Source: Pseudomonadota bacterium (GTDB taxonomy: Bacteria; Bdellovibrionota_C; UBA2361; OMII01). From it: a stretch of 64,000 bases of DNA. The notes below the pieces were generated by a model. It saw nothing but the letters and a program-made list of their open reading frames with translations. It was not told where the DNA came from and ran no database searches. The position numbers were made by a program, and so were the translations under genes. Below, in pieces: positions 14,893 to 29,284 of this stretch; position 1 is the first letter of the stretch; each line of letters starts with the position of its first letter. The DNA lies in the NCBI GenBank assembly GCA_039799965.1, contig JBDLRS010000011.1:1234-65233 (forward strand), given 5' to 3'.

Positions 14893-15020
14893 TGGGATAT
14901 CGCTCCGGCACATCTCTCAATCGACCCAGAGTGCCTGCCCCGTCCTGTAATGGGGCCGCATCCAGCGCGGGGAAAACAGGGGGGCCTTTCCTGGAATCAC
15001 GTGGGTAAAATAAGTAGGGA

Positions 15021-15168
15021 CTTCGTGAAATCGAGTGGGTAGGGCTCGGTGTTATCCCGACGTGCACGTGCACGTTCACGTTCACGTGGAAAGGGAGCTA
15101 TGCCTGAGCCAAAGCAAGGGTTTACGTTACCTCTGTGCTCGTTGGCACCCACTCCATTCCTCGATAAG
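15021..15168. repeat. R2 MITE-like repeat, copy B, with expanded CACGTG/CACGTT hexamer tract
   Basis: Direct-orientation match to 13266..13393. Carries an internal (CACGTK)n expansion at 15071..15097. Confidence 0.6.
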
Positions 15169-15292
15169 CCAATAAGTAACTCATTGGAGCCTGGTCGCAG
15201 GTTTAAGTAAAAAGATAGGCCGTTGAATCTTTTGAAGTCACCATAACTCGTATGGCGACCCTGCAAGAAGCAGTTCATCGATACGAGAGCAA

Positions 15293-18200
15293 ATGACTAA
15301 GGCATCGTTTAAACATAGAAATGCCCAATCAGAGTCCCTGTATCCTCACGGAGTTTCTGACCTACGTGCGACATCCTTTACTCAACGGGATGCACAAGCG
15401 TTTGCGCGCGACCTTCCACAAGGGTTACGTCGTGTGCGGGCAACCCACAACAGCGCTCTACGGCGTCACGAGCAGGGGGATATCAGCCGTAAGGAGCTGG
15501 TGAGCATAGCGATGGAATTTCGGAACTATGCTGACGAGATCCGCCAAGGTGGACGCGGATCCTTTGTAAAGGTCAGCCGCAAAATTGAGAGTATGGCATC
15601 CGCCTTGGAGAGGCTCTCTCGGGCAGATCTCGGGCCAAGCTCCGTGCGACCGTTGTCTGAGATCCTGACCCCGGAGATAGACTTATTGCTACGCAAAGTG
15701 GCCGCGAGTGAAGCCGTTCAAAAGGCTTTGAATACCGGAAATGCTGGAATTGCCCACCAGCACCTGAGGCGCTCTTCTCGCTACGCAAAAACGCCTTCGG
15801 GGAGCACGGTTATCTTTTTAGCGAGTCTCGAAAGTGGAAGACGGGCGCTCGTTGATTACTCAAAAGAGACCAGATGCGAAGCGAAGGCGATGGTTGTGGC
15901 CATGACCCCACCGAATGGACCCACCCTCCTTACTCATTACTTGCCCCGACCGCCCGGGTTGCATATAGCCCTTGATGCCGGGGGGCTTAAAGTTCGTGTG
16001 GAGCAGGTCAAATCTCAGCTTGAGTTCCTTGCTGCTTATCATGAAGCTCGCGAGGGGTATGTTGCCCAAAATCGCGAACAGTTACAGACGATCGCTCGTA
16101 GGGAGGGGCGAGAGGACCTGGCATGCTCTCCAGAGTCGATTGATGCGATTATTCGATCTGCGTTTGGCCTCTCTGAAGGATACTTGAGCCTTTGGAGCTA
16201 TGCCAACATCGTGGGGTATTACCCCTTAGTTTCGGAGGAAGTTAAGGATCTGATAGAAGCCGTCTCACCTAGAGGCTTGGACTATCTCTCGAAACACACC
16301 ATTGCTGCATTAGCTCAAGGTAGGTCCCCCGATCTTGAGGATCCCGAATCACGACAAGCACTCACGAAGCAACTCCTGACTCAGCCTTGGAGCAGCATCT
16401 CAACCCCGTTGTCAACTTACCATCTTTGGAAACTAGAGGACCATATCGATACCAGCGTAGCTCCCGACTCGACATGGTCCGTGGCGACCGTGTGGGCACA
16501 TGTACATCCGTTTTTGAGCACAGTAGTCCCGCAGAGCTTTGAAGATGTTGTCCCCGATGGATACAACATCTTCAGCGCCACTGACGTTTTGAGAGCTATC
16601 GGTGCGCAAGGCCTACCTAGTTTCATTTCGAATGCCATCAGTGACGTGACAGGTTGGCTGAAGCGTTATGAACAAAAAAATAAAGCTCACTCGAAGAGTA
16701 TAGATATGGCGCGCACCCTGCTCGAGGAGGGGGAAAACCGCGAGGGATTTGCCACCCTCGATCGAGCCGTCCAAGATGTTCTCGAGTTTCGCTCGGCGAT
16801 ACAGACTAAACGCCAATTCGCTAGCTCTGAATCTGCGCGGTTGTCTTTTGAGATTGACAAACATGAACTGCTACTCTCCCGCACTCGCGATGAGATACAG
16901 CAAGGTAAGGTCGTACTGCGATTATTACAAGAAGCCAAGAATGCAGAGGATATTATCGGTGCACTTTTTCATGGGTTATGGCCAGGTGGAACTTTCGGAG
17001 AGAGCCAGCGCGACATGTTTAATCGCCGATGGTACCATGCTCAGTACCAAAGCGGCTCGCAGAAGCCATCGATCTCCATAATCGAGAACCCGTTTGGATC
17101 TTTTTATGCCCTCGGAGACGGCGATAGCGGCTTAACGAACCAACGCTACGAGGGACCGGGTGAAAGTCGCACGCCAACTGTGCGGGAAACTATGTGGCTC
17201 CATGGCGATCGATTGTCGGCCGTGGAGATAGTTATGTCGCATGACGCCAAGATGCAAAAGATTCCTCAATCTATCTGCGACATGGTGATCCTCGATCAGG
17301 TGTCCGGTAGTAGACGTTTCGCTGTTCGTCCCCCCAGCTCTTTGGAGTGGCTCATAACCAAGCGCACCTCAGCCGTAGAAGCGGCGCTGGGGCACCAGAT
17401 TCCAATCAGCACGCGAATGGTTGGAGATGTCCCGTACACCTTTGTGGAGTGGCCAAATTCCGGGACACTTCAACCTGAGAGCATCCGAAAGATACTAAAG
17501 CTCTCGGAGGAATTCGCCATCGATTCGTGGAAATTGCTTACGAAATTCGACCGCTTCTATCGGGCCGCCCCTCATTACGAGAAGATCAATCCTCTCCACG
17601 TACATATGCCGCGTGTCTGCATTAAAGACCCGAAACTTATGGAGGAGTATCTCGGTGCAGCGAGCGCCATCTCGGATCAAGCGCAGGATCTGCCCAAAGC
17701 GCTAGCTTCGCTGTTGAGGATAAGCGAGAACAGGGGTGAGACCTCGGTGGAAGTACGGTGTGCAGTCTGCTTCATTACACATGCACTCGCCCTCTTCTCG
17801 TCACATGCCGAAGAGGGTAATCGCACCGCAATCATCCTGCGTCTGATGCTCAACTCAGAGGAGTTTCTCTGTTCCTTGAAAGAGGCTATCGCGTCCGAAT
17901 CTTTTTATTTTCGGACTTTTGAAGCGTGGGAAAAAAAACTCACGTCCTTCTTCCTTGAGGAGTACGCAGGTTGCCTCGAAACAAAGCTGCACGAAGCAGG
18001 GGTATTCGACGGCATCCTGGTGGTCAAGGCTGCGGAGGTAGCATGTCAAGGCTCTGGTGAAGATGGCGCTACGTTCATCACAGCCGTGCAACAGGAGCCG
18101 CCTACACGGGTGACTGTTTCGGTCGATATAGACCGATTTTTGCGTGCTTTTAACGATGCATACCCCATATTCGCGGACGCATTGCGTCGTTTTAGCCCAG

Positions 18201-18484
18201 TTGTTGATAAGAGCGATACCTTTCCCCGTGCAAGGCAAGGTGACACTTCGTATCTTCAGATAAGAGAGGAGCTTTTTGCCACTCTTAATAACCACGACTT
18301 CGAGACCGAGCTGCCGAACCGGTTGACCACTCTGCGTCAGAGAGGTTTGAGCTTGCGATTTTGGGATCTGGCTATCGGCCCGGGGGATGACCATGCGGCA
18401 GTAGCCAAGTTCAATCAAGCACTTCTCAAGTCGCTTGGCCTCCTCTGTTACTCGACTGATGAGCGCCCCTTCCGCTGCCGATGA
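15293..18484 (+). CDS. large hypothetical protein (1063 aa) on AT-richer DNA, no recognisable domain
   Basis: Single long ORF with no strong antisense ORF. No signal peptide, Walker, HExxH or repeat motifs were found by eye. Composition is visibly AT-richer than the flanks. Confidence 0.5.
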   Translation: MTKASFKHRNAQSESLYPHGVSDLRATSFTQRDAQAFARDLPQGLRRVRATHNSALRRHEQGDISRKELVSIAMEFRNYADEIRQGGRGSFVKVSRKIESMASALERLSRADLGPSSVRPLSEILTPEIDLLLRKVAASEAVQKALNTGNAGIAHQHLRRSSRYAKTPSGSTVIFLASLESGRRALVDYSKETRCEAKAMVVAMTPPNGPTLLTHYLPRPPGLHIALDAGGLKVRVEQVKSQLEFLAAYHEAREGYVAQNREQLQTIARREGREDLACSPESIDAIIRSAFGLSEGYLSLWSYANIVGYYPLVSEEVKDLIEAVSPRGLDYLSKHTIAALAQGRSPDLEDPESRQALTKQLLTQPWSSISTPLSTYHLWKLEDHIDTSVAPDSTWSVATVWAHVHPFLSTVVPQSFEDVVPDGYNIFSATDVLRAIGAQGLPSFISNAISDVTGWLKRYEQKNKAHSKSIDMARTLLEEGENREGFATLDRAVQDVLEFRSAIQTKRQFASSESARLSFEIDKHELLLSRTRDEIQQGKVVLRLLQEAKNAEDIIGALFHGLWPGGTFGESQRDMFNRRWYHAQYQSGSQKPSISIIENPFGSFYALGDGDSGLTNQRYEGPGESRTPTVRETMWLHGDRLSAVEIVMSHDAKMQKIPQSICDMVILDQVSGSRRFAVRPPSSLEWLITKRTSAVEAALGHQIPISTRMVGDVPYTFVEWPNSGTLQPESIRKILKLSEEFAIDSWKLLTKFDRFYRAAPHYEKINPLHVHMPRVCIKDPKLMEEYLGAASAISDQAQDLPKALASLLRISENRGETSVEVRCAVCFITHALALFSSHAEEGNRTAIILRLMLNSEEFLCSLKEAIASESFYFRTFEAWEKKLTSFFLEEYAGCLETKLHEAGVFDGILVVKAAEVACQGSGEDGATFITAVQQEPPTRVTVSVDIDRFLRAFNDAYPIFADALRRFSPVVDKSDTFPRARQGDTSYLQIREELFATLNNHDFETELPNRLTTLRQRGLSLRFWDLAIGPGDDHAAVAKFNQALLKSLGLLCYSTDERPFRCR

Positions 18485-18614
18485 AGTGGCGTACCCCGCA
18501 AGATCTCATGTTTCTGTTTCTCAACCGCCAGAGATCCTCTGTAGGGCTGAGTAAGTTCCTCGTATAAGGGCGATCCTTATCTGCGGGTTGCAATTTCTCC
18601 GCCCTGCTAGGGTG

Positions 18615-19340
18615 TCACTCTATTGACTCTTTAAAATAATTGTCACAGGCACTAAAGCATTCTTTATGCCACTTGTTAGCGATTTGCTTCTCTTGTTCCG
18701 TAGATGCCTCAGCTGAAAACTCATTCGCATACTGAGTACAGAGAGCATAACAAAGTTCGTACTTGTTCATGCCAGTTGCAACTGTCACGAGTACTTCGTA
18801 AGCCAAGTTCATATCCCTAAATACCATTTGAGCCACCGTCCAGGGCCTGGATATACTTTTATGGACTGCCTCAACCGGCTCAAAGCTACATTCACACCCT
18901 GTAGTTCTTTCCTTACTGGTTGCTGTAGGTCCGCATCCTTCAGGTGGCATGGTTTTCTTGCCATCATCAAGTTCTGAACAAGGGAATGGGGGGCCAAACA
19001 CAAAGTCTTGCGTGCTCGTCGGATTCGCTACTATACACCGACCTCCATCTAATCGAACTACGACTACAGCATGACCAGCACCTTCACAATACATCTTGTA
19101 TATCTGACAATTGAGTCCCCATTCGCCGCACCTTCTCTTAAATCCATTGGCATAATCTCCACAAATATTATACGCATTGTATGGACCCAGCTCTCTATGA
19201 ACTTCATTCGTTAAGCTATAAATCAAGCAGTTGCTGGGTTCCGCCGCTGCAGTACCCGTATCTGCATGTGCCACGATAGGGGGGCAAAGTAATGCTATGC
19301 ACAGGAGCCTCAAGTTATTAAGCATTGTATGTTTAATCAT
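18615..19340 (-). CDS. secreted Cys-rich protein with transglutaminase-like cysteine peptidase motifs (BTLCP/LapG-like candidate)
   Basis: ATG at 19340 gives signal peptide MIKHTMLNNLRLLCIALLCPPIVAHA. Motifs NICGDYANG (C-x-D-Y-A) and GHAVVVVRLDGG match the Cys and His boxes of the TG-like fold. This is the most AT-rich stretch of the window. Confidence 0.4.
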   Translation of the reverse strand: MIKHTMLNNLRLLCIALLCPPIVAHADTGTAAAEPSNCLIYSLTNEVHRELGPYNAYNICGDYANGFKRRCGEWGLNCQIYKMYCEGAGHAVVVVRLDGGRCIVANPTSTQDFVFGPPFPCSELDDGKKTMPPEGCGPTATSKERTTGCECSFEPVEAVHKSISRPWTVAQMVFRDMNLAYEVLVTVATGMNKYELCYALCTQYANEFSAEASTEQEKQIANKWHKECFSACDNYFKESIE

Positions 19341-19529
19341 CGTAGCCTGACCTATTCTCTGACGTTGCTCCGGCAGGTGCATGTCTATTTGAAAACCTAG
19401 CCCTGAGTTACATGAACGTCATTTCGATCGCCGAGCTTTAGCCCTTTTATTCGAAAGGAAACTTTTTTGGTCCAGGATCTTAAGTTCACAAGCGCCAAGG
19501 CCGACTCTCCTTGTGAGGAGAAGAAAGGT

Positions 19530-20129
19530 ATGGTGCCACAAAACGTAGGACCGGCGGAGATGCTCACGTTCGGAATATTAGTCGGAGCCATGGGCCTCGG
19601 TCTCGTTGTTGGGATCGTGTACAAGCTTTTTGCGGGAGCTCGGAGCCCAGGTTTTGTGTCCGGGGAACGAGGTCGAGCTGAGGCTTTGTTGAACGATTTC
19701 TCCGGCAGGATATCACTGATCGAGCATAAGCAACGCGTCCTGAGTGTCTACACTAACGAATACTTTACAACCTTCCATGAAGCGGGGTGGGGAGAGCTCC
19801 AAGCGCTCATAGAAAATCTTAGGACGATTGAAACATCGCTTCGAGTTATGTGTGAGCAGCGTCGTTTCAGACAAGTGGTTCAGGTGTGTCAGTATCTGTT
19901 GGGTTCGTGCTCTCCGGAGTCAGCTCGTGCGATTGTTACCGCGTACGAGGGGCTCTCCTTGGTCGCGAATTGGCGCGAGGAATCGAGGGTTATTCTTCTT
20001 CGACTCATTCAGGCTACAACTACTTCGGCCGAGAAAACCGCGGAGTTTGGTGTCACACGAAAGCGCATGACTCGCAGGCCAACCCTGCTGTCCCTTGCAG
20101 AGCTTAGAGATTCGCTCGGTGATTTTTAA
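19530..20129 (+). CDS. hypothetical single-pass membrane protein
   Basis: One N-terminal TM segment (MLTFGILVGAMGLGLVVGIVYKLFAGA) followed by a soluble domain. The start is uncertain (19467 or 19530). Confidence 0.3.
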   Translation: MVPQNVGPAEMLTFGILVGAMGLGLVVGIVYKLFAGARSPGFVSGERGRAEALLNDFSGRISLIEHKQRVLSVYTNEYFTTFHEAGWGELQALIENLRTIETSLRVMCEQRRFRQVVQVCQYLLGSCSPESARAIVTAYEGLSLVANWREESRVILLRLIQATTTSAEKTAEFGVTRKRMTRRPTLLSLAELRDSLGDF

Positions 20130-20274
20130 AAAACCGAACGCTGGCCTTGAGCAGTGCTTGTACGCACAGGTGAGCTTAGCACGGATAGTAGAGCATCCGA
20201 GCCGGAGTTAAAGGGTTTCGCTCCGGTATAGGAGAGCGATCAAGAGCAGCGCCGTAGCGCGTCCACTGTTTGCA

Positions 20275-24624: not shown

Positions 24625-26559
24625 ATGTCGAAGGAAAATAAATTCCAAAAATTGATTCAAGAGGATCGTGAGACCCGTAAAAAATCTTCTTGGAAAGGTA
24701 CGATGCTTGAGTACCTTGAGAAAGTTCGCGAGAACCCTGGGGCGGTCAAACTTGCGCACAAGCGGCTCTACGACATGATCGCTGATAAGGGAACCGTCGA
24801 GGTGGACCTCGAACAGGATCCCCGCCTGAAGCGTATCTTCAAGGGCGAGAAGCTCAAAGTCTTTAACTTCTTCGCCGACGAGTTCTTCGGTATGGAGAAA
24901 ACGCTCAATCAGATCGTGCGATATTTCCACTCAGCGTCGCTGCGAGGAGAGGAGAGTCGGCAGGTTCTCTACCTCGTAGGTCCCGTAGGTTCCGGAAAGA
25001 GCTCTCTTGTGGAGCGCCTCAAGAAGGGACTTGAGGAGCTTCAGTTTTTCTACTCCATTGAGGGATGTCCGATGAATGAGGAGCCGCTGCACCTCGTTCC
25101 TCGACACCTTCGCAAGGAGTTCTCCAAGATGCTCGGCGTGGAGATCGAGGGAGATCTCTGTCCGGTTTGTCGATACCGCCTCAAAGAGGAGTTCAAGGGT
25201 AAGTGGGAGGACGTTCCCGTCAAGACCCAGGAGTTCTCCATTCGCGCCAAGCGTGGCGTGGGCGTTGTTCCCCCGGTAGATCCGAACAACCAAGATACCA
25301 GCGTTCTGATCGGTGGGGAGGATATCTCAAAACTCGACCTCTACTCAGAGGGCGATCCGCGAGTGCTTGACCTTACTGGCGCGCTGAATGTGGGTAACCG
25401 CGGAATGGTTGAGTTCATCGAGGTGTTCAAGAACGAGACCGAGTATCTTCACGCGATGATCACCGCGACTCAGGAGAAGTCGATTCCAGCTCCCGGGCGT
25501 CACGGAATGATTTACGTCGATACCTGCATCGTGGCGCATTCCAACGAAGCGGAGTGGAAGAAGTTCAAGAGCGACCACACCAACGAGGCGATCCTTGACC
25601 GTATCGTGACGGTAAAGGTCCCCTACAATTTGCGACTCTCTGAGGAGGTGAAGATCTACAAGAAGATCATTCGTCAATCGCAGTTCACGGCCGATATCGC
25701 TCCGCACACGATCGAGATCGCCTCGATGTTCGCGATCCTCTCCCGACTTGAGCCAACCAATAAGTGCGACCTGGTAACCAAACTCAAGCTCTATAACGGA
25801 GAAGAGGTTGTGGAGAAGGGCAAGACGAAGCGCATCGATGTGGTAGAGCTTCGTGAAGAGGCGAAGAGCGAGGGAATGAACGGTATTTCTACTCGTTTCA
25901 TCATGAAGGCGCTCGATAATGCGCTCTCTGATAACGTCGAGATGAACGCTATCAATCCTATCTCGGTACGAGAGGCGCTCGTGCAGATGGTTAAGGAGGC
26001 GGACTTCGCGGATGACGTGAAGAAGCGCTACCTTGAGTTCCTCCAGGATACCCTCCACAAGGAGTTTCTTGAGGTGCTTGAGAAAGAGATCACCAAGGCG
26101 TTCGTCTACTCCTACCAGGAGCAGGCGGAGTCACTCTTCCAAAACTACCTTGATCACGCTGAGTCATACGTGACGAAGAAGAAGTTCAAGGATCGTAGCA
26201 CCGGTGAGGTGCTCGAGCCGGACGAGGGATTCATGAAGTCTATTGAGGAACAGATCGCTATCATCGGCACCGCGTGTGATGGATTCCGTCAGGAGGTCAT
26301 CGCGTACCTCTGGTCAGCGGGACGCCGCGGCGAGAAGGTCACATACGAGAGCTACGAGCCGCTTAAAGAGGCGATCGAGAAGAAGCTGATGGCGAGCGTT
26401 CGCGATGTATCGCGAATTATTACCAAGGCGCGCACTCGAGATGACGACCAGCACAAAAAGTACAACAAGATGGTTGAGCAGCTTATTCGGAACGGATATC
26501 CGGCGAGTTGCGTGGATGTAATCCTGAAGTACGCCGCCAACAATCTTTGGAAGGACTAA
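24625..26559 (+). CDS. prkA: PrkA family serine protein kinase (AAA+ ATPase N-domain)
   Basis: 644 aa. Walker A motif LVGPVGSGKSSLVERLK. It is colinear with the yeaH-like and spoVR genes. Confidence 0.9.
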   Translation: MSKENKFQKLIQEDRETRKKSSWKGTMLEYLEKVRENPGAVKLAHKRLYDMIADKGTVEVDLEQDPRLKRIFKGEKLKVFNFFADEFFGMEKTLNQIVRYFHSASLRGEESRQVLYLVGPVGSGKSSLVERLKKGLEELQFFYSIEGCPMNEEPLHLVPRHLRKEFSKMLGVEIEGDLCPVCRYRLKEEFKGKWEDVPVKTQEFSIRAKRGVGVVPPVDPNNQDTSVLIGGEDISKLDLYSEGDPRVLDLTGALNVGNRGMVEFIEVFKNETEYLHAMITATQEKSIPAPGRHGMIYVDTCIVAHSNEAEWKKFKSDHTNEAILDRIVTVKVPYNLRLSEEVKIYKKIIRQSQFTADIAPHTIEIASMFAILSRLEPTNKCDLVTKLKLYNGEEVVEKGKTKRIDVVELREEAKSEGMNGISTRFIMKALDNALSDNVEMNAINPISVREALVQMVKEADFADDVKKRYLEFLQDTLHKEFLEVLEKEITKAFVYSYQEQAESLFQNYLDHAESYVTKKKFKDRSTGEVLEPDEGFMKSIEEQIAIIGTACDGFRQEVIAYLWSAGRRGEKVTYESYEPLKEAIEKKLMASVRDVSRIITKARTRDDDQHKKYNKMVEQLIRNGYPASCVDVILKYAANNLWKD

Positions 26560-26584
26560 ACGTTCCCCGCTTCGGTGAGGTGTA

Positions 26585-27820
26585 ATGTCGACCATATTTC
26601 GTCCCTACACTCCTAGCTCGCAGCGCTCTGACCGGAGCGCGCGAGATAGGATGCGACATCGCCAAAAGATCAAAGACTCTATTCGCGATAACATCGGTGA
26701 TATCCTTGCAGAGGAATCTATCATCGGTCGGGATCGGGATAAGATCATCAAGGTGCCAATCCGCTCCGTCAAGGAGTATCGCTTCATCTACGGCGAAAAC
26801 TCGCCGGGCGTGGCTCAGGGCGACGGCCAGCAGAAGCCAGGAGATGTAGTTCAACAGGGCGATCAAGAGGGTAAGGGACAGGGCGGTAAGGGTGGAGACC
26901 AACCTGGTGTCGATGCTTTTGAGACCGACATCACCCTAGAGGAGCTCATCGCGATTATGTTTGATGACCTCGAGCTTCCGGAGCTTGAGAAGAAGGCCCT
27001 GAAGGAGGTCGTGTCAGAGGATGCCCGCAAACGCAAAGGTCATCGCCGAGCCGGTATTCGGCCCCGACTCGATAAGCGAGCAACCGCGCGTAATCGAGCC
27101 CGAAGGTGGATGTCGGTACGTCGAAGTCGAGAGGTTGGTCCAGATGGCGAGAAGCCGCGCTTCCCATTCCACGAGGATGATATGCGGTACTACCACATCG
27201 TCCCTACAACGAAAGAGGCTTCGAACGCCGTGATCTTCTGTATCATGGATACCTCAGGATCTATGGGTACGGTGAAGAAGTACCTCGCGCGGAGCTTTTA
27301 CTTCCTATTGTATCAATTCGTTCGCCAAAAATACGCTAACGTTGAGGTGGTCTTTATCGCTCACCATACCGAAGCGAAGGAGGTGAGTGAGGAGGATTTC
27401 TTCCACAAGGTGGAATCGGGAGGTACCTACATCTCCTCAGGCTATAAGAAGGCGCTCGAGATTATCGAGGACCGGTATCATCCATCGCTATGGAACGTGT
27501 ACGCGTTTCATTGTTCCGATGGTGATAACTTCTACTCAGATAATGAGCGCGCCCTGCAGGCGGCTGAGGATCTGTGTAAGGTGTGCAATCTCTTTGGCTA
27601 TGGTGAGATTAAGCCATCGGGGAGCGCCTACTACAGCGGTACTATGTTAGAGGTGTTCGGCGCAATTAAAGCCGACAACTTCCACATGATTACGATCGAG
27701 AAGAAAGAGGATCTCTGGGAAGGCTTCAGAAGCTTCCTACTGAAGGATAAGGGGAGCGGCGTTTCGGCTCACGGAAAAGTGTTTGGTGGGAGCGAGGGGG
27801 CGGCTTCGGCCGCACCGTAG
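26585..27820 (+). CDS. YeaH/YhbH family protein (DUF444, vWA-like)
   Basis: 411 aa. Carries the DUF444 hallmark FCIMDTSGSMG. It follows prkA by 25 nt. Confidence 0.85.
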   Translation: MSTIFRPYTPSSQRSDRSARDRMRHRQKIKDSIRDNIGDILAEESIIGRDRDKIIKVPIRSVKEYRFIYGENSPGVAQGDGQQKPGDVVQQGDQEGKGQGGKGGDQPGVDAFETDITLEELIAIMFDDLELPELEKKALKEVVSEDARKRKGHRRAGIRPRLDKRATARNRARRWMSVRRSREVGPDGEKPRFPFHEDDMRYYHIVPTTKEASNAVIFCIMDTSGSMGTVKKYLARSFYFLLYQFVRQKYANVEVVFIAHHTEAKEVSEEDFFHKVESGGTYISSGYKKALEIIEDRYHPSLWNVYAFHCSDGDNFYSDNERALQAAEDLCKVCNLFGYGEIKPSGSAYYSGTMLEVFGAIKADNFHMITIEKKEDLWEGFRSFLLKDKGSGVSAHGKVFGGSEGAASAAP

Positions 27821-27826
27821 AAAGCT

Positions 27827-29284
27827 ATGTCACATAACATCGACGAACTTGCTGATTGGGATAAACGGATACTGGAGCTCGTTCACACGTACGGGCTCAA
27901 CTGCTATCCCCAAGAGTTTGAGATCTGCGATCACAACGAGATGTTGGGATATATGGCGTACACCGGCATGCCATCGCACTATCCACACTGGTCATACGGT
28001 AAATCGTTCGAACGTCAAAAGACCATGTATGACTACGGTGTGTCGGGTCTTCCGTACGAGATGGTGATCAATTCAAATCCCTGTCTTGCGTACTTAATGC
28101 GTGATAATTCACTCCTGTTACAGGTGCTCACTATAGCCCACGTATACGGCCATAACGACTTTTTCGCAAACAACTTCACCTTTACCTCGGGAACCAAAGC
28201 GGAGCACGTTCTTCAGTCCTTTAAGAGCCACGGACAGAGAATTAGCTCGTACCAAGAGGATCCCTCGATCGGTGTCGAGGCTGTCGAGAACATGATCGAT
28301 CACGCGCACGCGATCTGTTACCAACGGTCTCGAAATCTCGCTATTACACAACTCTCTCAGGATGAGCAGGTTCTTCGGGCGTGGGAGCGATCGCAGCCAG
28401 CGGCGGACCCGTGGCGAGAAATTCATCCGGCGAAGGAGTATAAGCCACCTAATCTTACACGGGTTCCAGCGGAGCCGCAGGAGAATATCCTGCAGTTTAT
28501 CGCCAAGTATAATCCGTACCTCCCTGAGTGGAAGAGGGACATCCTGTTGATCGTTGACGCGCAGACGCAGTACTTCATGCCGCAGATGGACACCAAGATC
28601 ATGAACGAGGGATGGGCGAGCTACTGGCATCATAAGATCCTTAACGAGCTTAAGCTCCCGCAAGGGATGCACCTTGAGTTCCTCGTACGGCACAACCAGG
28701 TGTTGCGCCCCCACCCAGGTGGGCTCAATCCATATCACCTCGGATTCGTTCTGTGGCACGATATCGAGCGTCGCTGGAATCAGGGAGACATTGGTAGAGA
28801 GTGGTCGGACGATGAGCCGCCAACCGCTGAAGGGATCAAAGACGAGAACGAAACCCCGGGTCGTAAAAAGATCTTTGAGGTACGCGAAGCGGACCGTGAC
28901 CAGTCCTTCCTTCGCCGATTTCTTACACGCGAGATAATGGAGGAGCTGCACCTCTTCCAGCACGAGCGCCGGGGAAAAGATCGCGTTATCACCAAGGTCG
29001 CCAGCGAAGAGGGGTGGCGCGAGGTCAAAGAGAACCTTATCAGGAACGTTGGTACCGGCTCTATTCCGGTTATAAAGATCGAGGATGCGGATTTTGGGAA
29101 GAGCCGCATACTCTATATGAAGCACTACCATGACGGTCGAGATCTTCAGCTTGAGTACGCGGAGCACACGCTTAAGCACGTGGCGGCTCTGTGGGAGCGT
29201 GAGGTAGTGCTCGAGACCTCGATTAACGGCAAGGAGTCGCTTCTTAAGTTGGTTGGCGATTCCCTCAAAATTGAGCGACTCTAG
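27827..29284 (+). CDS. spoVR: SpoVR family protein
   Basis: 485 aa third member of the prkA-yeaH-spoVR triad. Its TAG stop lies inside the CTAG end of the MITE. Confidence 0.85.
   Translation: MSHNIDELADWDKRILELVHTYGLNCYPQEFEICDHNEMLGYMAYTGMPSHYPHWSYGKSFERQKTMYDYGVSGLPYEMVINSNPCLAYLMRDNSLLLQVLTIAHVYGHNDFFANNFTFTSGTKAEHVLQSFKSHGQRISSYQEDPSIGVEAVENMIDHAHAICYQRSRNLAITQLSQDEQVLRAWERSQPAADPWREIHPAKEYKPPNLTRVPAEPQENILQFIAKYNPYLPEWKRDILLIVDAQTQYFMPQMDTKIMNEGWASYWHHKILNELKLPQGMHLEFLVRHNQVLRPHPGGLNPYHLGFVLWHDIERRWNQGDIGREWSDDEPPTAEGIKDENETPGRKKIFEVREADRDQSFLRRFLTREIMEELHLFQHERRGKDRVITKVASEEGWREVKENLIRNVGTGSIPVIKIEDADFGKSRILYMKHYHDGRDLQLEYAEHTLKHVAALWEREVVLETSINGKESLLKLVGDSLKIERL

What the first reader, a model, noticed from the sequence alone, without database searches (positions are those of the whole stretch)
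18615..19340. Secreted Cys-rich protein with C-x-D-Y-A and G-H-A-V boxes reminiscent of BTLCP/LapG-type transglutaminase-like peptidases, but with a possibly atypical Asp position
After a signal peptide the protein has NICGDYANG and GHAVVVVRLDGGRCIVANP. These resemble the catalytic Cys and His boxes of the bacterial TG-like cysteine proteinase family (DUF920/C93), to which LapG belongs. The expected downstream Asp is not obvious (VAN where I recall LDN). No LapD- or LapA-like partner is present. Instead the neighbour is the orphan 1063-aa protein (convergent, 130-bp gap), which could be a substrate or partner. It also has 14 additional Cys.
Basis: inference. Interest (0 to 1): 0.6.

Follow-up and report, generated by a model that had tools for sequence, protein, structure and literature searches.

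The report
Rare exported cysteine-rich transglutaminase-like enzyme
The gene encodes an exported, cysteine-rich protein from a very rare, unnamed family whose core is a distant relative of transglutaminase-like cysteine enzymes; it is not a LapG-type protease and its large neighbour is not a conserved partner.

Summary
The ORF and both motifs are real: 18615-19340, minus strand, 241 aa, with an alternative start at 19382. No Pfam or NCBIfam model matches the protein, PF06035 (BTLCP/LapG) included.

An exhaustive HMMER search found about 17 relatives among billions of proteins. All carry export signals. Some come from Myxococcota. Cys60 and His90 are invariant in all 17, and residue 106 is Asn, Asp or Glu, with constant spacing.

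Eight distant members match Pfam Transglut_core (PF01841) over the Cys-His-acid segment, and one reaches the gathering score. In profile-profile comparison the family matches real Transglut_core domains at 96.5% probability with the triad in register; shuffled controls give 0.1% or less. Against eight real BTLCP/LapG proteins it gives only 2%.

A confident AlphaFold model (pLDDT 91) puts Cys60 at a helix N-terminus, with His90 and Asn106 on adjacent strands. Fold searches returned only weak hits, mostly papain-like.

My verdict is a new, divergent, disulfide-rich family of the transglutaminase-like superfamily, probably a thiol hydrolase. The substrate is unknown, and whether Cys60 is a free thiol is unproven. 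No LapD or LapA is nearby, and the 1063-aa neighbour does not co-occur with the family.

The parts
18615..19340 (-). Coding sequence of the 241-aa exported Cys-rich transglutaminase-like protein, stop codon included. An alternative upstream ATG at 19382 would give 255 aa.
   Evidence: ORF list. Identical to the NCBI MAG protein RIS36_232. Same gene call in a Logan assembly. Homologue P0002 is 48% identical over the mature part.
19263..19340 (-). Predicted Sec signal peptide, residues 1-26: MIKHTMLNNLRLLCIALLCPPIVAHA, cleaved before D.
   Evidence: Sequence inspection: basic n-region, 12-residue hydrophobic core, A-H-A site. The family members with a complete N-terminus also start with signal peptides or lipoboxes. 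No predictor was run.
19188..19238 (-). N-terminal helix, residues 35-51. It carries the variable Cys38.
   Evidence: AlphaFold model mc3c7ce03bf05, helix 5-21 of the mature numbering, block pLDDT about 96. Cys occupancy of this helix varies between members.
19020..19172 (-). Transglutaminase-like catalytic core, residues 57-107: helix 60-73 starting at Cys60, strands 77-85, 88-97 (His90) and 101-105, then Asn106.
   Evidence: hhalign of the family against real Transglut_core domains: 96.5% over 54 columns covering this segment. PF01841 positions 53-108 matched by homologues. Profile hit to PDB 9crn_A, a transglutaminase-like domain protein. Secondary structure.
19161..19163 (-). Cys60 codon (tgt), the proposed nucleophile.
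   Evidence: Invariant in 17/17. Aligns with the catalytic Cys of Transglut_core and of BTLCP. First residue of helix 60-73.
19071..19073 (-). His90 codon (cat), the proposed general base.
   Evidence: Invariant in 17/17, one of only three invariant non-Cys residues. Aligns with the catalytic His in the GHAWN motif.
19023..19025 (-). Asn106 codon (aat), the third triad position.
   Evidence: The column is N (2), D (7) or E (8) across the family, 15-19 residues after the His. It aligns with the Asp of VDxT in Transglut_core.
18873..19019 (-). Beta-rich middle region, residues 108-156, with invariant F119, C136, C149 and C151 and the covarying pair C102/C121.
   Evidence: Alignment and Cys covariation. 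Strands 114-120, 128-131 and 149-156 in the model.
18621..18845 (-). C-terminal four-helix domain, residues 166-240. Its last two helices carry twin CX3C motifs (C197-x3-C201 and C228-x3-C232).
   Evidence: AlphaFold helices 166-176, 179-189, 193-211 and 215-240. The four Cys are invariant in 17/17. No Pfam, PDB or PHROG match.

Best explanation
The gene encodes an exported protein, periplasmic or extracellular, stabilised by several disulfides. Residues 57-107 form a highly divergent transglutaminase-like (papain-like, clan CA) catalytic domain. The proposed mechanism is thiol catalysis. His90 deprotonates Cys60, which sits at the N-terminus of a helix. Asn106 on the neighbouring strand orients His90, a role taken by Asp or Glu in other family members. 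Cys60 then attacks an amide bond and forms an acyl-enzyme that is resolved by water. That would make it a protease, isopeptidase or amidase, the commonest outcome for bacterial members of this superfamily. Less likely, an amine resolves the intermediate, which would give cross-linking.

A beta-rich middle region and a four-helix bundle stapled by twin CX3C motifs surround the core and probably give stability outside the cell. They may also shape the substrate site.

Shown: homology of the core to Transglut_core, conservation of the triad positions, the secondary-structure layout, export signals, and covarying Cys pairs. Inferred: catalytic activity, a free Cys60 thiol, hydrolase rather than transferase chemistry, and the substrate, which is unknown. 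The protein works alone as far as gene context shows; no conserved partner gene was found.
For: - Family and triad: an exhaustive HMMER search of 1.84 billion representatives with the profile of the window protein plus P0002 found 13 proteins at E<1e-3, and a further search added 4. The two halves of the family are homologous over their full length (hhalign 99.6%, 176 columns). C60 and H90 are invariant in 17/17. Position 106 is N, D or E, with constant spacing.
- Link to Transglut_core (Pfam): 8 of 17 members match PF01841 positions 52/53-108, the Cys-His-Asp part. Scores are 15.3-23.3 bits against a gathering score of 23, and P0015 reaches it.
- Link to Transglut_core (PDB): the family profile's only PDB sequence hit is 9crn_A, a 'Transglutaminase-like domain-containing protein', with all three residues in register but E = 0.59.
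- Link to Transglut_core (profile-profile): hhalign against 7 genuine Transglut_core domains fetched from plasmids gives 96.5% probability and E = 8.5e-10. The 6-sequence subgroup around the window protein gives 86.9%. Reversed or column-shuffled controls give 0.1% or less.
- Structure: the AlphaFold model with the 17-sequence alignment has pLDDT 91.3 and pTM 0.84. Helix 60-73 starts at Cys60, His90 lies in strand 88-97, and Asn106 directly follows strand 101-105. Many of the best Foldseek hits, though weak, are papain-like or transglutaminase-like: PCAT1 and ComA C39 domains, the papain-like ligase CtaG, USPs, MepS, a phage 'Transglutaminase', and Mimivirus L280 (CtaG described in PMC12865890).
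- Third-residue variation is known in active members of this superfamily: Cys-His-Asp/Glu, and Ser/Thr in vasohibins (PMC4866520).
- Export and disulfides: signal peptides or lipoboxes in the members with a complete N-terminus. Perfectly covarying Cys pairs 102/121, 103/118 and 170/200. Eleven Cys are invariant, an odd number, and P0005, P0006 and P0007 each have 15 mature Cys, so at least one invariant Cys is unpaired there.
Against: - The window protein itself has no Pfam, NCBIfam or PDB sequence hit. On its own it scores only 21% in hhalign against Transglut_core, so the assignment rests on transitive, profile-level homology.
- I could not read model coordinates, so triad geometry and the free-thiol status of Cys60 are untested.
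- Cys parity of the mature proteins is mixed. The window protein has 14, an even number, so Cys60 could be disulfide-bonded, for example to the variable Cys38.
- Asn in place of Asp is unusual for this fold.
- There is no functional or contextual clue to the substrate.
Confidence: 0.6

Rival explanations
1. It is a BTLCP/LapG-type periplasmic protease (Pfam PF06035, MEROPS C93) that releases a large adhesin.
For: - The local motif resemblance is real. Genuine BTLCPs fetched here carry DCEDYA, HAVL/HMVL and [VI]LD[NS]. The window protein has CGDYA, GHAVV and VANP with similar spacing.
- hhalign puts Cys and His in register with LapG.
- The protein has a signal peptide, as LapG does (PMC3032545).
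Against: - No member of the family hits PF06035 at E<=1 to 10.
- hhalign against 8 real BTLCPs gives 2% probability, against 96.5% for Transglut_core. The positive control, Transglut_core against BTLCP, gives 75.9%, so the method can see real superfamily links.
- The acidic residues around the BTLCP Cys are not conserved in this family. At least one of them binds Ca2+ in LapG (D139, PMC4866520).
- No LapD-like or LapA-like gene lies within about 10 kb, whereas real lapG is followed directly by lapD or an EAL-domain gene.
Confidence: 0.03
2. It is a non-catalytic, disulfide-knotted exported protein, such as a binding, structural or inhibitor-like protein. It would descend from a transglutaminase-like enzyme, with Cys60 locked in a structural disulfide.
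For: - The mature window protein has an even number of Cys (14), as do 8 of the 12 members with a complete N-terminus by my count.
- The third triad residue is Asn here.
- Fourteen of about 215 mature residues are Cys.
- No partner or substrate context was found.
Against: - His90 is one of only three invariant non-Cys residues across 20-48% identity, and position 106 is restricted to N, D or E. That is hard to explain without catalysis.
- The invariant Cys set is odd (11), and three members have 15 mature Cys, so one invariant Cys must be unpaired there.
- Cys60 sits at a helix N-terminus, exactly where the nucleophile sits in this fold.
Confidence: 0.2
3. It is a true transglutaminase or ligase that cross-links proteins or forms amide bonds outside the cytoplasm, rather than a hydrolase.
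For: - It has the same core and triad as Transglut_core.
Against: - No sequence feature separates transferase from hydrolase here.
- From my own knowledge of the superfamily, most bacterial members are thought to be hydrolases.
- No acyl-donor or acyl-acceptor partner gene is linked.
Confidence: 0.12
4. It forms a functional pair with the convergent 1063-aa neighbour, as substrate, immunity protein or partner.
For: - The two genes are adjacent with a 130-bp gap, and both are rare and unannotated.
- A homologue of the large protein (P0021) also has a convergent unannotated ORF, 229 aa, 124 bp downstream. Its sequence could not be fetched.
- A target-family member (P0006) occurs in the same metagenome sample, but on a different contig.
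Against: - Convergent genes are not co-transcribed.
- The large protein has no signal peptide by inspection, whereas the target is exported.
- None of the loci of target homologues encodes a relative of the large protein.
- Loci L026 and L027 of the large protein's homologues encode no target-family member by tblastn or hmmsearch.
- The 229-aa ORF did not appear as a family member in the exhaustive search.
Confidence: 0.05

Closest known systems
Transglut_core domain proteins (Pfam PF01841, clan Peptidase_CA), e.g. PDB 9crn_A and the 'transglutaminase domain-containing proteins' of Firmicutes and Nostoc fetched here (L011-L017)
   Same: - The Cys-His-Asp core is shared, with similar motifs: C-x-G/D-Y-A, then G-H-A-x-N/V, then V/A-D/N-x-T.
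- Spacing is similar.
- The secondary-structure order is the same: Cys at a helix N-terminus, then His and the acid on successive strands.
- hhalign gives 96.5%, and PF01841 is matched at or just below threshold by relatives.
   Different: - The window protein itself falls below every Pfam threshold.
- Only about 54 columns align.
- The helical segment that precedes the Cys in typical Transglut_core domains does not align.
- The Trp after the catalytic His (HAW) is replaced by V, F or I.
- The third residue is Asn here.
- Eleven invariant Cys and a C-terminal twin-CX3C helical bundle have no counterpart.
- The family is extremely rare, about 17 clusters in billions of proteins.
BTLCP / LapG (Pfam PF06035, MEROPS C93)
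   Same: - It belongs to the same superfamily.
- It is exported and of similar size.
- Its Cys box (C-E-D-Y-A), His box (H-A-V-L) and H-to-D spacing of 15-17 residues resemble those of the window protein (PMC3032545).
   Different: - There is no significant sequence or profile similarity (2%).
- The acidic DCED residues around the Cys are not conserved.
- The LDN Asp is replaced by Asn.
- There is no LapD or LapA context.
- BTLCPs lack the many disulfides and the C-terminal helical domain.
Other papain-like thiol enzymes recovered as weak fold neighbours: C39 bacteriocin-processing peptidase domains (PCAT1, ComA), the papain-like ligase CtaG, NTAQ1, and NlpC/P60 MepS
   Same: They share the general alpha+beta papain-like arrangement, with the nucleophilic Cys at a helix N-terminus.
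   Different: Foldseek E-values are all 8.5e-3 or weaker, with TM-scores of 0.34 or lower. There is no sequence similarity. Domain contexts and cellular locations differ.

Membership tests
BTLCP / LapG (PF06035, C93) | Significant match to the PF06035 profile | tested here: not met
   No hit for the window protein at E<=10, and none for any of the 17 family members at E<=1 to 10.
BTLCP / LapG (PF06035, C93) | Profile-level similarity to genuine BTLCP sequences | tested here: not met
   hhalign of the family against 8 annotated LapG or 'transglutaminase-like cysteine peptidase' proteins gives 2.0% probability, E = 0.024. The Transglut_core versus BTLCP control gives 75.9%.
BTLCP / LapG (PF06035, C93) | C-H-D triad, with conserved acidic residues flanking the Cys (DCED; at least one binds Ca2+ in LapG) | tested here: not met
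   Cys and His are present, but the Asp position is Asn. The columns at -1, +1 and +2 from the Cys are I/Q/V/N, G/S/Q/T and D/K/N/V/T across the family. PMC4866520 reports Ca2+ binding for LapG D139.
BTLCP / LapG (PF06035, C93) | Gene neighbourhood with a LapD-like c-di-GMP receptor and a LapA-like adhesin | tested here: not met
   Genes from 7.0 to 32.3 kb encode an M20 peptidase, DHOR, Ysc84, DAO, a Wzx-like flippase, unknown proteins, PurF, PurL, PrkA, DUF444, SpoVR and PntAB. Real lapG loci have lapD or an EAL-domain gene directly downstream.
Transglutaminase-like superfamily (PF01841 Transglut_core type) | Match to PF01841 at the gathering score | tested here: inconclusive
   The window protein has no hit. 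Homologues score 15.3-23.3 bits against a gathering score of 23, and P0015 and the subgroup consensus reach 23.3. These homologues are tied to the window protein at E = 3e-6 to 6e-4 in a library of 1.84 billion and by hhalign at 99.6%.
Transglutaminase-like superfamily (PF01841 Transglut_core type) | Profile-profile homology of the core with Cys, His and Asp in register | tested here: met
   hhalign gives 96.5%, E = 8.5e-10, over 54 columns. The window subgroup alone gives 86.9%. Controls give 0.1% or less. 9crn_A aligns in register.
Transglutaminase-like superfamily (PF01841 Transglut_core type) | Conserved catalytic triad positions across homologues | tested here: met
   C60 and H90 are invariant in 17/17. 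Position 106 is N (2), D (7) or E (8). Spacings are 30-32 and 15-19 residues.
Transglutaminase-like superfamily (PF01841 Transglut_core type) | Papain-like core fold: Cys at a helix N-terminus, with His and the acid on adjacent antiparallel strands | tested here: inconclusive
Transglutaminase-like superfamily (PF01841 Transglut_core type) | Thiol-dependent catalytic activity | not testable with these tools
   This needs biochemistry.

The most novel reading that the evidence does not exclude
These proteins would be a previously undescribed family of small, disulfide-locked, exported transglutaminase-fold enzymes, combining a minimal Cys-His-(Asn/Asp/Glu) core with a twin-CX3C helical bundle. 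Myxobacteria and a few uncultured bacteria would use them as extracellular effectors against other cells or against matrix. The variable Cys in the N-terminal helix (Cys38 here) would cap the active-site Cys60 as a redox-released, zymogen-like switch.
Probability: 0.12. Interest if true: 0.55.

Novelty: new variant of a known kind. Interest (0 to 1): 0.33.

Why it matters
It assigns a fold and a testable active site (C60, H90, N106) to a protein that every standard annotation library leaves blank. It also defines a tiny, unnamed, Cys-rich branch of the transglutaminase-like superfamily, found in Myxococcota and a few uncultured bacteria.

If the protein is active, it would be a compact, disulfide-stabilised extracellular thiol enzyme with natural Asn/Asp/Glu variation at the third triad position. 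That would be useful for understanding how tolerant this fold is, and possibly as a stable enzyme scaffold.

It does not open a major biological question by itself. The substrate and the role are unknown, and no system-level context was found.

Tried and rejected
- Direct annotation found nothing for the window protein: Pfam, NCBIfam, PHROGs, PADLOC and PDB sequences.
- BTLCP membership was rejected by profile-profile comparison against real LapG-family sequences. I located those with a consensus recalled from memory and validated them by their annotation.
- The partner hypothesis found no support. Neither the 1063-aa nor the 220-aa neighbour has a relative in any locus of the target's homologues. 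No target-family gene lies in loci of the large protein's homologues. I could not fetch the P0021 contig; two metagenome scans found nothing.
- Two genome-contig scans recovered only one Archangiaceae MAG locus.
- Viral contig scans found no member.
- Cys-count parity as a test for a free thiol gave mixed results and was dropped as decisive evidence.
- Promoter/terminator, Rfam and tRNA scans showed nothing relevant near the gene.

Full report
**Observation**

The ORF is real. It runs 18615..19340 on the minus strand (241 aa plus stop). The frame stays open to an upstream ATG at 19382, which would give 255 aa. NCBI calls the 241-aa form 'MAG: hypothetical protein RIS36_232 [Pseudomonadota bacterium]', and a Logan assembly makes the same call.

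NICGDYANG is residues 58-66 and GHAVVVVRLDGGRCIVANP is residues 89-107. I checked the codons of Cys60 (19161-19163), His90 (19071-19073) and Asn106 (19023-19025) in the sequence.

The N-terminus reads as a Sec signal peptide: MIKHTMLNNLR, then LLCIALLCPPIV, then AHA followed by D. This is by inspection only.

The protein has 16 Cys, 14 of them in the mature part.

**Direct annotation fails**

The window protein has no match at E<=10 in Pfam or NCBIfam, PF06035 included, and none at E<=0.01 in PHROGs or PADLOC. PDB sequence hits are all at chance level, with the best at E = 0.66.

A word-indexed search of 5.8 billion protein clusters found only the protein itself and one homologue, P0002, at 48% identity.

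**A very small family**

I ran an exhaustive HMMER search of 1.84 billion representatives with the profile of the window protein plus P0002. It found 13 proteins at E<1e-3. A profile search added four close relatives of one of them.

The two halves of the family are homologous over their full length (hhalign 99.6%, 176 columns). One half is the window-like group: P0002, P0003, P0005, P0006 and P0007. The other is a more distant group, P0008 to P0018.

The members with a complete N-terminus begin with a signal peptide or a lipobox followed by a low-complexity linker. P0016 comes from an uncultured Archangiaceae MAG. P0014 lies next to the myxobacterial marker DUF2378 and large Ser/Thr kinases. 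No member was found in viral contigs.

**What is conserved**

Across 17 sequences that are 20-48% identical to the window protein, the invariant residues are eleven Cys (60, 71, 78, 85, 136, 149, 151, 197, 201, 228, 232) plus His90, Phe119 and Pro166.

Position 106 is Asn in the window protein and P0002, Asp in 7 members and Glu in 8. The C-to-H spacing is 30-32 residues and the H-to-(D/E/N) spacing is 15-19.

Three Cys pairs covary perfectly in presence and absence: 102/121, the register-shifted 103/118, and 170/200. That is the signature of disulfides.

C197-x3-C201 and C228-x3-C232 lie on the last two predicted helices. This twin-CX3C arrangement probably staples the helical hairpin, though that is inference.

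**Link to the transglutaminase-like superfamily**

- Eight of the 17 members match Pfam Transglut_core (PF01841) over profile positions 52/53-108, the Cys-His-Asp part. Scores are 15.3-23.3 bits against a gathering score of 23. P0015 and the subgroup consensus reach 23.3.
- The family profile's only PDB sequence hit is 9crn_A, a 'Transglutaminase-like domain-containing protein'. E is only 0.59, but the Cys, His and Asp are all in register.
- I fetched seven genuine Transglut_core domains from annotated plasmids and ran hhalign. The family against Transglut_core gives 96.5% probability, E = 8.5e-10, over 54 columns, with C60, H90 and N106 on the catalytic C, H and D.
- The six-sequence subgroup around the window protein gives 86.9%. 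Reversed and column-shuffled controls give 0.1% or less. The window protein alone gives only 21%, so the assignment depends on the family profile.

**Test of the BTLCP/LapG idea**

A BTLCP consensus that I recalled from memory retrieved annotated lapG and 'transglutaminase-like cysteine peptidase' genes. I fetched eight of them.

hhalign of the target family against them gives only 2% probability (E = 0.024). The Transglut_core versus BTLCP positive control gives 75.9%.

The acidic residues flanking the BTLCP Cys are not conserved in the family. At least one of them, D139, binds Ca2+ in LapG (PMC4866520). Real lapG is followed directly by lapD or an EAL-domain gene. Nothing of that kind lies within about 10 kb here.

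LapG is documented as a periplasmic DUF920/BTLCP protease with a C-H-D triad (PMC3032545). The target shares the superfamily and the cellular location, but not the family.

**Structure**

With two sequences, AlphaFold gave pLDDT 66. With the 17-sequence alignment it gave pLDDT 91.3 and pTM 0.84. In 241-aa numbering the elements are:

| Element | Residues | Note |
|---|---|---|
| Helix | 35-51 | carries variable Cys38 |
| Helix | 60-73 | starts at Cys60 |
| Strand | 77-85 | |
| Strand | 88-97 | contains His90 |
| Strand | 101-105 | followed by Asn106 |
| Strands | 114-120, 128-131, 149-156 | beta-rich middle region |
| Helices | 166-176, 179-189, 193-211, 215-240 | C-terminal bundle |

The order, nucleophile at a helix N-terminus with His and the third residue on successive strands, is that of papain-like and transglutaminase cores.

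Foldseek against PDB and BFVD found nothing significant. The best E-values were 8.5e-3 and 3.2e-3, and TM-scores were 0.36 or lower. Many of the leading hits are papain-like or transglutaminase-like: PCAT1 and ComA C39 domains, CtaG, USPs, NTAQ1, SseI, MepS, a phage 'Transglutaminase', and Mimivirus L280. CtaG is described as a papain-like ligase in PMC12865890.

**Mechanism proposed**

I propose an exported, disulfide-stabilised thiol enzyme. His90 activates Cys60, and Asn106 orients His90; Asp or Glu does this in the relatives. The acyl-enzyme is most likely resolved by water, giving a protease, isopeptidase or amidase.

Variation of the third residue is documented in active members of this superfamily: Asp or Glu commonly, and Ser or Thr in vasohibins and some PF01841 proteins (PMC4866520).

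The main uncertainty is whether Cys60 is a free thiol. The invariant Cys set is odd (11), and three members have 15 mature Cys, which demands one unpaired invariant Cys. But the window protein has 14 mature Cys, because of the extra Cys38 in the N-terminal helix. Either two Cys are free, or Cys38 pairs with the otherwise free Cys. The latter would suggest a capped, zymogen-like state, which is speculative.

The substrate is unknown.

**Neighbourhood and the partner hypothesis**

The gene lies in a slightly GC-poor stretch (0.50-0.52, against 0.53-0.58 for most of the window). It sits between a Wzx-like flippase gene and purF-purL, among ordinary chromosomal genes.

The 1063-aa neighbour has no Pfam hit and no obvious signal peptide. 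It is not a strict orphan: it has three homologue clusters at 39-54% identity. The co-occurrence tests were negative:

- Neither it nor the divergent 220-aa membrane-protein ORF has a relative in the ten loci fetched for seven homologues of the target. Most of those contigs are short.
- Loci L026 and L027, which carry homologues of the large protein, contain no target-family gene.

One case stays open. The contig of P0021 has a convergent 229-aa unannotated ORF 124 bp downstream. Its DNA could not be retrieved. A family member, P0006, occurs in the same sample, but on another contig.

On balance the pair is not supported.

**Verdict**

The protein represents a new, very rare, Cys-rich exported branch of the transglutaminase-like superfamily, closest to PF01841-type domains. 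It has a conserved Cys-His-(Asn/Asp/Glu) triad and an unmatched C-terminal twin-CX3C helical domain. That makes it a new variant of a known kind, of moderate interest.

Noticed in passing
window 15293-18484 (+): The 1063-aa protein has no Pfam, NCBIfam, PHROG or PADLOC match and no obvious signal peptide. It belongs to a very rare family: three homologue clusters at 39-54% identity, each 1187-1214 aa, all from metagenomes. JGI calls a shorter 943-aa form of the window gene. Function is unknown.
   Followed up: partly
P0021 contig, JGI sample 3300059473 (no DNA held); compare window 18485-18614: A 39%-identical homologue of the 1063-aa protein is also followed by a convergent, unannotated ORF (229 aa, 124-bp gap), mirroring the window arrangement. 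Its sequence could not be fetched. Family member P0006 is in the same sample, on a different 1.6-kb contig.
   Followed up: partly
window 14900-20200: This stretch holds the 1063-aa gene, the target gene and a 220-aa ORF. Its GC content is lower (0.50-0.53) than most of the window (0.53-0.58), and all three genes lack annotation. It lies between a Wzx-like flippase gene and purF, so it may be an acquired or fast-evolving islet.
   Followed up: no
window 19467-20129 (+): This ORF is divergent from the target, 220 aa here and called as 199 aa in a Logan assembly. It has one predicted transmembrane helix (MLTFGILVGAMGLGLVVGIVYKLF), no family match, and no relative next to the target's homologues.
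   Followed up: partly
window 24625-29284 (+): A complete PrkA - DUF444 (YeaH-like) - SpoVR-like three-gene cluster is present. Its products are still poorly understood.
   Followed up: no
L002 10001-20789 and L003 (uncultured Archangiaceae MAG): The gene of family member P0016 overlaps the start of an adenylylsulfate (APS) kinase gene in two assemblies. It lies just upstream of two VgrG genes, DUF2169, PAAR-like and AHH-nuclease genes, which form a type VI secretion effector island. The link is not seen for P0014.
   Followed up: no
L007 939-2365, L008, L009: Family member P0003 is followed, after 9 bp, by a 229-aa protein with no family match. It is flanked by a fragment that resembles a zinc-finger transposase C-terminus. 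The 229-aa protein has no relative in the window.
   Followed up: partly
P0010 (419 aa), residues 1-250: One family member carries a long extra N-terminal region with about 20 additional Cys in short C-x-C and C-x2-C spacings, ahead of the transglutaminase-like core.
   Followed up: no
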